A stretch of DNA of 5,246 nt from the IMG/VR virus record IMGVR_UViG_2529292908_000004; one strand, given 5' to 3'. Below, in pieces: positions 1-5,246 of the stretch. How positions within the stretch are numbered: the stretch's first letter is position 1; every line of letters begins with the position of its first letter. The position numbers and the translations under genes were made by a program. Under the pieces are notes generated by a model. That model was not told where the DNA came from. It did no database searches and was given only the letters and a program-made list of their open reading frames with translations. Source of the DNA: a virus. Lineage: Duplodnaviria; Heunggongvirae; Uroviricota; Caudoviricetes.

Positions 1-42
1 CGCACCGAAAATGTCAGCCAGCTGCTTTTTGTTGACTTCCAT
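1..42 (-). CDS. nohA: Terminase small subunit (Nu1 homologue), N-terminal 14 codons only; gene continues past the window start
   Basis: Minus-strand translation from ATG at 42-40 gives MEVNKKQLADIFGA, matching the N-terminus of lambda gpNu1 as I recall it. It lies immediately downstream of the cos site, as in lambda. Confidence 0.85.
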   Translation of the reverse strand, partial: MEVNKKQLADIFGA

Positions 43-290
43 TGTTCATTCCACGGACAAAAACAGAGAAAGGAAACGACAAAGGCCAAAAAGCCCGCTT
101 TCAGCACCTGTCGTTTCCTTTCTTTTCAGGGGGTATTTTAAATAAAAACATTAAGTTACGACGAAGAAGAACGGAAACACCTTAAACCGGAAAATTTTCA
201 TAAATAGCGAAAACCCGCGAGGTCGCCGCCCCGTAACCTGTCGGATCACCGGAAAGGACCCGTAAAGTGATAATGATTATCATCTACATA
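43..290. other. Lambda-type cos site: cosN with the 12-nt cohesive end at 220-231, cosB Nu1-binding repeats and an AT-rich IHF-like segment at about 60-180, cosQ-side flank at 232-290
   Basis: Minus strand of 220-231 reads GGGCGGCGACCT, followed by CGCGGGTTTTCGCTATTTATGAAAATTTTCC, which matches my memory of the lambda left end. Inverted GTCGTTTCCTTTCT-type repeats at about 64-82 and 108-124 and a CGTTTCCGTTCTTCTTC element at about 160-178 correspond to the R1/R2/R3 arrangement. The flank 232-250 reads as the lambda right end (GATCCGACAGGTTACG on the minus strand). Confidence 0.85.
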
Positions 291-430
291 TCACAACGTG
301 CGTGGAGGCCATCAAACCACGTCAAATAATCAATTATGACGCAGGTATCGTATTAATTGATCTGCATCAACTTAACGTAAAAACAACTTCAGACAATACA
401 AATCAGCGACACTGAATACGGGGCAACCTC

Positions 431-664
431 ATGTCAACGAAGAACAGAACCCGCAGAACAACAACCCGCAACATCCGCTTTCCTAACCAAATGATTGAAC
501 AAATTAACATCGCTCTTGAGCAAAAAGGGTCCGGGAATTTCTCAGCCTGGGTCATTGAAGCCTGCCGCCGGAGACTGTGCTCAGAAAAAAGAGTTTCTTC
601 TGAAGCAAACAAAGAAAAGAGTGACATTACTGAATTGCTCAGAAAACAGGTCAGACCAGATTGA
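431..664 (+). CDS. ynfO: Small YnfO/YlcI-like prophage protein, 77 aa; possible ribbon-helix-helix DNA-binding fold (inferred)
   Basis: 77-aa ORF in the position ynfO occupies in Qin (between the Nu1 gene and ydfO). The segment RNIRFPNQMIEQINIALEQKGSGNFSAWVIEACRRRL has a strand-helix-G-x-S-helix pattern typical of RHH proteins. No obvious Shine-Dalgarno before the ATG. Confidence 0.65.
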   Translation: MSTKNRTRRTTTRNIRFPNQMIEQINIALEQKGSGNFSAWVIEACRRRLCSEKRVSSEANKEKSDITELLRKQVRPD

Positions 665-721
665 AGCAATTTAGATAATCGTGCAGACTACGCCCCCTCA
701 TATCACATGGAAGGTTTATCT

Positions 722-1132
722 ATGGATCAGGTAGTCATTTTTAAACAAATATTTGATAAAGTTCGAAACGATTTAAACTATCAATGGTTTTATTCTGAGC
801 TAAAACGTCACAATGTCTCACATTACATTTACTATTTAGCCACAGAGAATGTTCATATTGTATTAAAAAATGATAATACAGTGTTATTAAAGGGCCTAAA
901 AAACATTGTGTCTGTCAAATTTTCAAAGGATAGGCATCTTATAGAAACGACCTCTAATAAGCTGAAATCCAGAGAGATCACATTTCAGGAATACAGAAGA
1001 AACCTTGCTAAAGCAGGAGTTTTTCGGTGGGTTACAAATATCCACGAACAAAAAAGATATTACTATACCTTTGATAATTCATTACTATTTACTGAAAGCA
1101 TCCAGAAAACTACACAGATCTTACCACGCTAA
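722..1132 (+). CDS. ydfO: YdfO/YbcV-family (DUF1398) prophage protein, 136 aa from the ATG at 722; alternative upstream ATG at 707 would give 141 aa
   Basis: Open frame 707-1132. GGAAGG at 709-714 sits 7 nt before the ATG at 722, so 722 is the better-supported start. Translation resembles the Qin YdfO / DLP12 YbcV family from memory. Confidence 0.75.
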
Positions 1133-1283
1133 ACCATAACGTCCGGCTTCTCTCACTCCTGAGCCGGACTGCATTGGTTTAATAAAAACCATCAACAATT
1201 GTGATTTAGATATTCGGAACCATTCAAATATAACAAAACCCCGTAAAAACGAGGTTTATGGATAAATTTTATTATTGAATACA

Positions 1284-4731: not shown

Positions 4732-4956
4732 GAGATTGTGGTGCTTTTTGTGGGAGTCATCCACTTACGCACTTTGTTTTGCCATGCCAGCAGTTAGCTT
4801 CTGCTGTAAAACTATTCATGCAGCAAACCTGCACTTCACCACAATGGTTAGCATACTTTTCCTGATTAAGATTTTGCCAAATATGCTAGCCATTGTTTCA
4901 TGTATTGGACCTCCTTACTTTTTATTAAAGAGATCCAATATTCACTACTCTGTCCG

Positions 4957-5246
4957 GGTGATGCTGCCAACTTACTGATTTAGTGTATGATGGTGTTTTT
5001 GAGGTGCTCCAGTGGCTTCTGTTTCTATCAGCTGTCCCTCCTGTTCAGCTACTGACGGGGTGGTGCGTAACGGCAAAAGCACCGCCGGACATCAGCGCTA
5101 TCTCTGCTCTCACTGCCGTAAAACATGGCAACTGCAGTTCACTTACACCGCTTCTCAACCCGGTACGCACCAGAAAATCATTGATATGGCCATGAATGGC
5201 GTTGGATGCCGGGCAACTGCCCGCATTATGGGCGTTGGCCTCAACA
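4957..5246 (+). mobile_element. IS1 insertion sequence, left end (first 290 bp of about 768 bp); continues past the window end
   Basis: Starts at 4957 with the IS1 terminal inverted repeat GGTGATGCTGCCAACTTACTGATTTAGTGTATGATGG, followed by insA in the expected position and frame. Confidence 0.93.
5012..5246 (+). CDS. insA: IS1 InsA (transposition repressor / N-terminal part of the InsAB' transposase); GTG start, truncated by the window end
   Basis: From GTG at 5012 (GAGG 5 nt upstream) the frame reads (M)[77 protein letters not shown], which matches IS1 InsA. The track ORF at 4983-5195 is in a different frame and is spurious. Confidence 0.9.

What the first reader, a model, noticed from the sequence alone, without database searches (positions are those of the whole stretch)
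431..1132. ynfO-ydfO: a small RHH-like protein followed by a DUF1398 protein, next to cos and opposite to the late genes
These two plus-strand genes are separated by about 57 bp and lie between cos and the cold-shock cargo, oriented against packaging and lysis genes. That orientation is where lysogen-expressed accessory modules are usually found. The first product has a strand-helix-Gly-x-Ser-helix pattern suggestive of a ribbon-helix-helix DNA binder, and the second is a domain-of-unknown-function protein. Small DNA-binding protein plus effector is the layout of many toxin-antitoxin and exclusion systems, but nothing in the sequence proves such a role.
Basis: inference. Interest (0 to 1): 0.45.

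Follow-up and report, generated by a model that had tools for sequence, protein, structure and literature searches.

The report
Known lambdoid prophage genes ynfO and ydfO
These are two already catalogued accessory genes of a Qin-type lambda-like prophage of E. coli: a small, probably ribbon-helix-helix DNA-binding protein, and a protein of unknown function whose structure is solved. They sit side by side here through a local rearrangement and do not look like an obligate toxin-antitoxin-style pair.

Summary
ORFs at 431-664 and 722-1132 (+) are the RefSeq genes ynfO (Pfam DUF3950, YlcI/YnfO family) and ydfO (DUF1398; its sequence matches PDB 2HH8). They lie 200 bp from cosN (220-231) and run opposite to nohA and the lysis genes.

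The RHH call for YnfO is supported, but only by several weak signals that agree. The two-gene-module idea is not supported.
- Phage lambda, DLP12 and O157 prophages carry both homologues ~690 bp apart, with an oppositely oriented gene (ybcW/lambdap79) between them. In Qin, 54 bp replace 613 bp of lambda.
- YnfO-like genes occur without DUF1398 in most cases: 155 versus 43 phage records, and 8362 versus 3876 places in E. coli genomes.
- One prophage has ydfO without ynfO.
- The YnfO C-terminal tail is not conserved.
- A PdhR-type dyad sits 61-73 bp upstream of the DUF1398 start in every layout, so ydfO appears to carry its own control region.
- Neither protein matches a PADLOC defence model or a toxin family.

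Most likely, YnfO is a small cos-adjacent RHH regulator and YdfO is separately controlled cargo of unknown biochemistry. Known genes, low novelty.

The parts
1..42 (-). 5' end of nohA (lambda Nu1-type small terminase / DNA-packaging gene)
   Evidence: RefSeq annotation of the identical stretch in strain ML35. tblastn with a lambda Nu1 sequence written from memory matches at 98%.
220..231 (.). cosN 12-nt cohesive-end sequence (AGGTCGCCGCCC, the reverse complement of the lambda left end)
   Evidence: Read from the sequence. Window 232-593 aligns to lambda 48502-48141 at 98.3%.
269..287 (-). Fur-box-like site (16 of 19 matches to GATAATGATAATCATTATC) in the spacer between cos and ynfO. It is a candidate only.
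   Evidence: One match with 3 mismatches; 0.01 expected by chance. The stretch is identical in lambda.
329..361 (.). Imperfect dyad ATCAATTATGACG / CGTATTAATTGAT, 70-100 bp upstream of ynfO. It is a candidate operator or promoter region (inference).
   Evidence: Inverted repeat I1, 13-nt arms, 85% complementary. Conserved in lambda. The strict sigma-70 scan found no promoter in 150-1500.
431..664 (+). ynfO, 77 aa, DUF3950 / YlcI-YnfO family. The predicted RHH core is about residues 10-50. The tail from about residue 51 is not conserved.
594..647 (+). Qin-type junction segment. These 54 bp stand in for 613 bp of lambda (lambda 48140-47528: the 3' end of the 64-aa ORF, lambdap79/ybcW and the p78 upstream region). 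The segment encodes most of the non-conserved YnfO tail.
   Evidence: blastn of window against lambda. Its edges overlap the two copies of the repeat TGCTCAGAAAA(A/C)AG at 578-591 and 636-649.
646..662 (.). PdhR-type dyad AAcaGGTcagACCAgaT, inside the last codons of ynfO and 61-73 bp upstream of the ydfO start
   Evidence: Listed as a genomic-SELEX PdhR site for Qin in PMC7660256. The core GGTCAGACCAGAT lies at the same distance from the DUF1398 start in Qin-type, lambda-type and ynfO-less layouts.
722..1132 (+). ydfO, 136 aa (an alternative in-frame ATG is at 707), DUF1398. Its sequence matches the solved structure PDB 2HH8.
   Evidence: 79% identical to lambdap78.
1141..1169 (+). Stable hairpin just after the ydfO stop, between the convergent genes ydfO and gnsB. 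It is a likely transcript-end structure.
   Evidence: MFE -21.9 kcal/mol for the 68-nt stretch 1128-1195, z -5.67, 0 of 200 shuffles as stable. By contrast 655-725, between ynfO and ydfO, is unstructured (z +1.82), and no terminator-like site lies there.

Best explanation
ynfO and ydfO are two separate, non-essential accessory ('moron'-type) genes. They sit in the variable slot between the lysis cassette and cos of lambda-like phages and are transcribed against the late operon. YnfO is a small dimeric ribbon-helix-helix DNA-binding protein of the YlcI/YnfO (DUF3950) family. In lambda-type packaging modules it holds a fixed position 200 bp from cosN. It most likely acts as a transcriptional regulator, probably repressing its own leftward promoter in the spacer between cos and ynfO (inferred). 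YdfO is a soluble DUF1398 protein of unknown biochemistry, and one of several alternative cargo genes in this slot (others are bor and ybcW). It carries its own 5' control region, which begins at a PdhR-type dyad, so the host can switch it on independently of ynfO (partly shown in the literature for the DLP12 copy; inferred here). The tight ynfO-ydfO spacing in Qin comes from a local replacement of 613 bp by 54 bp relative to lambda. Read-through from ynfO into ydfO is physically possible, but it is not what defines the pair.
For: Identity and family. RHH: the conserved core K-x-I-R-F-P / helix / N-F-S-A-W-V / helix; AF2 shows an extended segment 14-18, H19-32 and H37-73 at pLDDT 72.8; 45 of the 50 top Foldseek PDB hits are RHH or RHH-like proteins such as ParD, NikR, Arc, MazE9, CopG/StnY, MatP, VapB, HicB and NikA; the HicB-like PHROG matches at E 0.01 over its C-terminal region; a CopG-family chain matches at E 0.87; Arc aligns in register, P 0.0036. 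Independence: lambda carries a 64-aa YnfO homologue (98% identical over 54 aa) and lambdap78 (79%), with lambdap79/ybcW on the other strand between them. An O157 prophage encodes the identical YdfO protein in that layout. There are 155 phage records with a YnfO-like ORF against 43 with a YdfO-like one, and 8362 against 3876 places in 5426 E. coli genomes. In Stx-type phages DUF3950 stands alone between Rz and HNH/terminase, and in ev243 it is followed by bor. L115 has ydfO plus ybcW without ynfO, beside a different terminase. The dyad GGTCAGACCAGAT always lies 61-73 bp before the DUF1398 start. PdhR binds this site in Qin in vitro, and ybcV mRNA falls 10-fold in a pdhR mutant (PMC7660256). ydfO mRNA is strongly inducible in K-12 (PMC4077768). 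Regulator role of the family: in a satellite, a DUF3950 gene is divergent from the primase/packaging operon, and two perfect GGTACGTACC palindromes flank a TATAAT before its start. Dispensability: lambdap78 knock-down has no effect (PMC10695390), and the whole Qin prophage can be deleted (PMC3105296).
Confidence: 0.55

Rival explanations
1. Regulator-plus-target operon that is not a TA system. YnfO is the dedicated transcriptional regulator of the leftward accessory transcript. In Qin it is co-transcribed with ydfO and controls it; in lambda it would control p78/bor from a distance.
For: The genes share a strand, are 57 bp apart, and have no terminator or stable structure between them. A YnfO-like gene heads the anti-late slot whatever cargo follows: ydfO, ybcW plus ybcV plus bor, or bor alone. 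Nearly every ydfO copy has one upstream.
Against: In Stx-type phages the YnfO-like gene has no downstream cargo at all. L115 has ydfO without it. In lambda, DLP12 and O157 prophages a convergent gene lies between the two. ydfO keeps its own conserved dyad and spacing in all layouts, and host PdhR controls the DLP12 copy.
Confidence: 0.2
2. Type II toxin-antitoxin, abortive-infection or superinfection-exclusion pair, with YnfO as RHH antitoxin and YdfO as toxin or effector.
For: The layout of a small RHH protein followed by a larger protein resembles many type II TA loci. The Foldseek hits for YnfO include many RHH antitoxins: ParD, MazE9, VapB, KacA and HicB. ydfO appears in the TraDIS 'essential' list as used by PMC8229198, which is odd and unexplained.
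Against: Co-occurrence is one-sided and the spacing is not conserved. The tail that would bind the toxin differs completely between Qin, lambda and Stx-type proteins, while the partner stays 79-100% identical. YdfO hits no toxin family and neither protein hits PADLOC. YdfO gave a solution NMR structure as a single-chain entry; that it was overproduced in E. coli without YnfO is inferred. In a TA pair the antitoxin, not the toxin, should resist disruption. Knock-down of lambdap78 is neutral.
Confidence: 0.07
3. YnfO acts at cos or on DNA packaging rather than on transcription, for example by binding DNA next to cosQ/cosN or by modulating the small terminase. Its neighbourhood with ydfO would then be incidental.
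For: The gene sits at a fixed 200 bp from cosN and ~390 bp from the nu1 start, and it stays there beside nu1 variants of 36-99% identity. In Stx-type phages it abuts the HNH/terminase genes. In satellites the DUF3950 domain is fused to the N-terminal part of a Terminase_2 small-terminase domain (P0190, P0208). It is listed among accessory genes of capsid-forming PICIs (PMC13612085).
Against: It lies on the strand opposite to the packaging genes and is antisense to the late transcript. Lambda packaging has been dissected in great detail without such a factor (background knowledge). Divergent family members sit in non-phage contexts, next to cytochrome bd genes or between fimbrial and restriction genes.
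Confidence: 0.08

Closest known systems
Right end of phage lambda: unannotated 64-codon ORF (complement 48110-48304), lambdap79 and lambdap78
   Same: The YnfO homologue is 98% identical over its first 54 residues and lies at the same distance from cos. The DUF1398 homologue is 79% identical. DNA identity is 98.3% and 84.4% in the two flanking blocks. lambdap78 is non-essential.
   Different: Lambda has 613 bp, including the oppositely oriented lambdap79 (ybcW homologue), where Qin has 54 bp. Lambda also has bor downstream. The YnfO tail differs.
DLP12 prophage ylcI-ybcW-ybcV (E. coli K-12) and the equivalent O157 prophage region
   Same: The same two protein families lie beside nohD/cos. The same PdhR-type dyad lies upstream of the DUF1398 gene. 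ybcV expression depends on PdhR.
   Different: ybcW lies between them, convergent with ylcI and divergent from ybcV. In Qin that gene is absent.
Ribbon-helix-helix regulators (Arc/Mnt of P22, CopG, NikR N-domain, ParD/MazE-type antitoxin DNA-binding domains)
   Same: The predicted strand-helix-turn-helix topology, a G-x-N-x-S turn before helix B, small size, and a Foldseek hit list made almost entirely of these proteins.
   Different: There is no significant sequence or structure score to any solved member. The dimeric beta-ribbon and DNA binding were not tested. There is no conserved partner-binding tail as in antitoxins.
Lambdoid morons bor and lom
   Same: They sit between late-gene modules, run opposite to late transcription, are present or absent among close relatives, and are dispensable for lytic growth.
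   Different: bor and lom have known products and lysogen expression. No phenotype is established for ynfO or ydfO.

Membership tests
Pfam DUF3950 / NCBIfam YlcI_YnfO_N | Profile match above the curated cut-off | tested here: met
   PF13132: 75.6 bits against a cut-off of 25. NF041551: 36.6 bits against 30.
Pfam DUF1398 (YdfO/YbcV) | Profile match above the curated cut-off; identity to the solved family member | tested here: met
   PF07166: 157.5 bits against a cut-off of 22. PDB 2HH8 'ydfO' matches at E 9.5e-87, identical over 136 residues apart from one conservative substitution near the C-terminus.
Ribbon-helix-helix (Arc/MetJ/CopG) superfamily | N-terminal beta-strand, helix A, G-x-S/T/N turn, helix B, within about 45 residues | tested here: met
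   The family alignment conserves I-R-F-P, a helix, then N-F-S-A-W-V. AF2 gives an extended segment 14-18, H19-32 and H37 onward.
Ribbon-helix-helix (Arc/MetJ/CopG) superfamily | Significant sequence or structure similarity to a solved RHH protein | tested here: inconclusive
Ribbon-helix-helix (Arc/MetJ/CopG) superfamily | Homodimer with an intermolecular two-stranded beta-ribbon that binds repeated DNA half-sites | not testable with these tools
   Only monomer prediction was available. No binding assay was possible. The candidate dyad 329-361 is noted only as a lead.
Type II toxin-antitoxin system | The two genes form a conserved, tightly linked pair that is inherited together | tested here: not met
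   155 against 43 phage records and 8362 against 3876 genomic places. The genes are separated by an opposite-strand gene in lambda, DLP12 and O157 prophages. ydfO occurs without ynfO in L115.
Type II toxin-antitoxin system | The second gene belongs to a known toxin family | tested here: not met
   Pfam, NCBIfam, PHROGs and PADLOC give only DUF1398 / phrog_413 or no match at all.
Type II toxin-antitoxin system | The antitoxin has a conserved toxin-binding region in addition to the DNA-binding domain | tested here: not met
   The sequence after about residue 50 is unrelated among Qin, lambda, Stx-type and other members.
Type II toxin-antitoxin system | Toxicity of the second product, neutralised by the first | not testable with these tools
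   The only evidence is indirect: a solution NMR structure of YdfO as a single-chain entry.
Known anti-phage defence systems (PADLOC-DB 2.0) | Match of either protein to a defence-system model | tested here: not met
   No family matched either protein at E up to 1.
Phage moron / lysogenic-conversion cargo | Inserted between functional modules, oriented independently, and present or absent among close relatives | tested here: met
Phage moron / lysogenic-conversion cargo | Own promoter and terminator; expressed from the repressed prophage | tested here: inconclusive
   There is a hairpin after ydfO and a conserved PdhR dyad upstream. ydfO and ybcV transcripts have been measured in K-12 (PMC4077768, PMC7660256). 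No consensus promoter was found and no transcription-start data were available.

The most novel reading that the evidence does not exclude
The YlcI/YnfO (DUF3950) RHH proteins could be a so far unrecognised class of cos-proximal regulators, shared by lambdoid phages and their satellites. Encoded 200 bp from cosN and antisense to the late transcript, they would gate expression of whatever cargo sits in the slot between lysis genes and cos, or interfere with the packaging of competitors. The satellite forms, which are fused to a small-terminase DNA-binding domain, would then be packaging-redirecting derivatives. YdfO would be one of the cargoes under this control.
Probability: 0.1. Interest if true: 0.5.

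Novelty: already known. Interest (0 to 1): 0.18.

Why it matters
Both genes are named K-12 genes of unknown function with homologues in phage lambda itself, so any firm function would add to a heavily studied phage. What this analysis adds is modest.
- The pair should not be treated as a TA or defence candidate on layout alone.
- DUF3950 can reasonably be read as an RHH DNA-binding domain.
- ydfO appears to travel with its own PdhR-type control site.
- The database labels 'head protein' and 'putative envelope protein' for the DUF1398 homologues have nothing behind them here.
- The oxidative-stress phenotype that one paper quotes for YdfO seems to belong to YfdO of CPS-53.

Tried and rejected
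1. AF2 of YdfO from a single sequence gave pLDDT 43.6. The solved structure 2HH8 could not be submitted to fold search.
3. Both homologue searches were saturated by near-identical E. coli sequences and by error-ridden copies from ~3.5-kb contigs that carry the lambda right end. Distant DUF1398 members could not be reached, so co-occurrence outside Escherichia was not tested for DUF1398.
4. The genome-contig scan returned the lambda right end in assemblies labelled Pseudomonas, Kitasatospora, Flavobacterium and others. I treated these as lambda DNA contamination, not as real distribution.
5. The oxidative-stress phenotype quoted for YdfO in PMC4077768 was followed to its source, PMC3105296. That paper names YfdK, YfdO and YfdS of CPS-53 and never mentions ydfO in its main text. 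I rejected it as evidence; its supplements were not checked.
6. The PHROG label 'head protein' and the GenBank label 'putative envelope protein' for DUF1398 were rejected. The gene lies outside the head module, I saw no long hydrophobic segment on reading the sequence, and the protein was solved by solution NMR.
7. The strict sigma-70 scan found no promoter in 150-1500. The hand-picked -10/-35 candidates were too weak to report as features.
8. TraDIS 'essentiality' of ydfO could not be checked in the primary paper because the cap on papers was reached.

Full report
WHAT IS THERE. The window is the right end of a Qin-type lambdoid prophage of E. coli. Megablast finds it at 99-100% identity in about 1,480 complete E. 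coli genomes. The RefSeq annotation of the identical stretch in strain ML35 gives these genes:
- nohA (- strand, ending at window 42);
- ynfO (431-664, +, 'YlcI/YnfO family protein');
- ydfO (722-1132, +, 'DUF1398 domain-containing protein');
- on the - strand: gnsB, ynfN, ynfR, ynfQ, cspI, rzpQ, rrrQ, ydfR and the holin gene;
- ynfU (+).

The match to ML35 ends at 4956. From 4957 the window continues into an IS1 element. The lambda cohesive-end sequence is at 220-231, and window 232 corresponds to lambda 48502.

Both are real genes. Pfam gives DUF3950 (E 2.7e-21) and DUF1398 (E 1.7e-46). dN/dS is 0.14 for the YnfO core against a Stx-phage homologue and 0.18 for ydfO against lambdap78. YdfO matches the protein solved as PDB 2HH8 over all 136 residues, apart from one conservative substitution near the C-terminus.

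IS YnfO AN RHH PROTEIN? Probably yes. An alignment of the query with genuinely divergent family members (33-57% identity) conserves K-x-I-R-F-P, then a helix, then a short variable turn, then N-F-S-A-W-V-x-x-A-C. After about residue 50 nothing is conserved. AF2 with that alignment (pLDDT 72.8) gives an extended segment at 14-18, a helix at 19-32 and a helix from 37. That is the RHH topology as it looks in a monomer.

Several weak signals agree with this:
- Foldseek against PDB has no hit with E<1. However, 45 of the 50 best hits are RHH or RHH-like proteins: ParD, NikR, Arc, MazE9, StnY/CopG, KacA, MatP, VapB, HicB, CdbA, NikA, YiiF and plant TCP domains.
- The 'HicB-like' PHROG matches at E 0.01 over its C-terminal region.
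- The family profile finds a CopG-family chain at E 0.87.
- hhalign puts N-I-R-F-P in register with N-L-R-W-P of Arc, a sequence I wrote from memory (P 0.0036).

ARE THE TWO GENES A MODULE? The comparative evidence says no.

(i) Phage lambda carries both genes. An unannotated 64-codon ORF (complement 48110-48304) is 98% identical to YnfO over 54 residues. lambdap78 is 79% identical to YdfO. They lie ~690 bp apart, with lambdap79 (the ybcW homologue) on the opposite strand between them. DLP12 has the same layout, with ylcI convergent with ybcW and ybcW divergent from ybcV. An O157:H7 prophage also has this layout and encodes a YdfO protein identical to the one in the window.

(ii) The alignment with lambda shows that window 232-593 matches lambda 48502-48141 (98.3%) and window 648-1151 matches lambda 47527-47023 (84.4%). 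So 54 bp in Qin stand where lambda has 613 bp. The close spacing, and most of the YnfO C-terminal tail, are products of that junction.

(iii) The YnfO family is much more frequent than DUF1398. There are 155 against 43 phage records. At least 40 of the 43 also have a YnfO-like ORF. In 5,426 complete E. coli genomes there are 8,362 places against 3,876.
- In Stx-type phages the DUF3950 gene stands alone between Rz and the HNH/terminase genes.
- In phage ev243 it is followed by a small ORF and bor.
- Divergent members sit next to cytochrome bd genes, next to integrases, between fimbrial and restriction genes, and in satellites. None of these has DUF1398 nearby.

(iv) One prophage (L115) has ybcW and ydfO beside an unrelated terminase, with no YnfO-like ORF.

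(v) The putative partner-binding tail of YnfO differs completely between Qin, lambda and Stx-type proteins, while the DUF1398 partner stays 79-100% identical.

(vi) Neither protein hits any PADLOC model, and YdfO hits no toxin family.

A caveat applies. Almost every ydfO copy does have a YnfO-like gene upstream on the same strand. Most of these copies are near-identical DNA, and the YnfO-like gene is a fixture of the lambda-type cos flank. The association is therefore what linkage alone would give.

HOW ydfO IS PROBABLY CONTROLLED. The homology between Qin and lambda upstream of the DUF1398 gene begins at a dyad, GGTCAGACC. The string GGTCAGACCAGAT lies 61-73 bp before the DUF1398 start codon in Qin-type loci, lambda-type loci and the ynfO-less locus. 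In the window it is at 649-661, inside the last codons of ynfO. A genomic-SELEX study lists exactly this sequence (AAcaGGTcagACCAgaT) as a PdhR site in Qin, and the homologous site between ybcV and ybcW in DLP12. ybcV mRNA fell 10-fold in a pdhR mutant (PMC7660256). ydfO mRNA rose 117-fold by qPCR after ionic-liquid shock, in a growth-phase-dependent way (PMC4077768). It was also one of four Qin genes that changed on DicC induction (PMC11430063).

So ydfO looks like cargo with its own host-responsive control region. No terminator or stable structure separates it from ynfO, and a strong hairpin follows it. Read-through from ynfO is therefore possible but not required.

WHAT YnfO PROBABLY DOES. 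My best inference is that it is a small RHH transcriptional regulator. In an E. coli-type satellite (integrase, D5-type primase, its own small terminase and capsid gene) a 60-aa DUF3950 gene is transcribed divergently from the primase/packaging operon. That is the classic position of a repressor gene. Two perfect GGTACGTACC palindromes flank a TATAAT just before its start codon. A second DUF3950 gene next to it is fused to the N-terminal part of a Terminase_2 domain. In the window, an imperfect dyad lies at 329-361 and a Fur-box-like site at 269-287 (16 of 19 matches; 0.01 expected by chance), both in the 200-bp spacer between cos and ynfO and both conserved in lambda. These are candidates only. 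A role at cos or in packaging is a minority alternative, suggested by the fixed position next to cos and by the terminase fusions.

LITERATURE CHECKS. No paper in the library assigns a function to ynfO, ydfO, ylcI, ybcV, DUF3950 or DUF1398.
- lambdap78 is non-essential in a CRISPRi screen (PMC10695390).
- The whole Qin prophage can be deleted (PMC3105296).
- PMC4077768 states that YdfO over-expression raises oxidative-stress resistance and cites PMC3105296. That paper attributes the effect to YfdK, YfdO and YfdS of CPS-53 and does not mention ydfO in its main text. This looks like a gene-name mix-up.
- ydfO is in the TraDIS 'essential' set as used by PMC8229198. That conflicts with Qin being deletable, and I could not examine it further.

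VERDICT. The module/TA/exclusion idea is not supported. These are known genes of unknown function in a well-known variable slot of lambdoid phages. Novelty: already known. Interest: low.

Noticed in passing
window 4957-5246: An IS1 element begins here (GGTGATGCTGCC...). The IS-free strain ML35 matches only up to 4956 and continues to cspB, so in this window IS1 is inserted between ynfU and cspB.
   Followed up: partly
window 269-287 (- strand); lambda about 48447-48465: A Fur-box-like sequence GTAGATGATAATCATTATC (16 of 19 matches to the consensus; 0.01 expected by chance) lies about 40-55 bp from cosN. It is conserved in lambda. From memory it is close to cosQ, so it may belong to cos rather than to iron regulation.
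   Followed up: partly
L011-L041 (genome contigs) and many ~3.5-kb ENA contigs among P0014-P0120 and P0251-P0353: The lambda right end (64-aa ORF, ybcW, p78) appears at 100% protein identity in assemblies labelled Pseudomonas, Kitasatospora, Flavobacterium, Brevibacillus, Cohnella and others, often as ~3.5-kb contigs. This is almost certainly lambda control DNA carried into public assemblies. Frameshifted copies inflate the apparent diversity of both protein families.
   Followed up: partly
literature: PMC4077768 versus PMC3105296 (also PMC9181523): The oxidative-stress phenotype attributed to YdfO seems to be a confusion with YfdO of prophage CPS-53. PMC9181523 also prints ydfO where its own text says yfdO.
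   Followed up: yes
ydfO, window 722-1132: ydfO is among the 358 genes scored essential by TraDIS, as used in PMC8229198, although the whole Qin prophage can be deleted. This is unexplained. It may reflect low insertion density in AT-rich or H-NS-bound DNA. The primary data were not seen.
   Followed up: no
L129 5540-6363 (also L130, L131); L005 4001-4390: A satellite-like island has two tandem DUF3950 genes, the second fused to a Terminase_2 N-terminal domain. Two perfect GGTACGTACC palindromes flank a TATAAT before the first gene. Four or five TTAACAC repeats precede the second gene.
   Followed up: partly
window 578-591 and 636-649: A direct repeat TGCTCAGAAAA(A/C)AG has copies that overlap the two edges of the 54-bp Qin-specific segment replacing 613 bp of lambda. 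It may mark the recombination junction.
   Followed up: no
L042 3700-4400 (E. coli ECGI0523): This is a decayed copy of the same ynfO-ydfO pair. Both reading frames are broken by multiple frameshifts and stops, so the pair is not maintained in every lineage.
   Followed up: partly
lambdap78 and homologues (phrog_413; GenBank records of lambda, HK629, HK630, DE3, O276): DUF1398 homologues are labelled 'head protein' or 'putative envelope protein' in databases. Nothing found here supports either label.
   Followed up: partly
P0122 and P0235: Database 'proteins' join a DUF3950 part to a DUF1398 part in one chain. In P0122 the intergenic stretch is translated through and part of YdfO is missing, so it looks like a gene-calling or sequencing artefact rather than a natural fusion. 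P0235 (233 aa, both Pfam domains) was seen only in the table.
   Followed up: no
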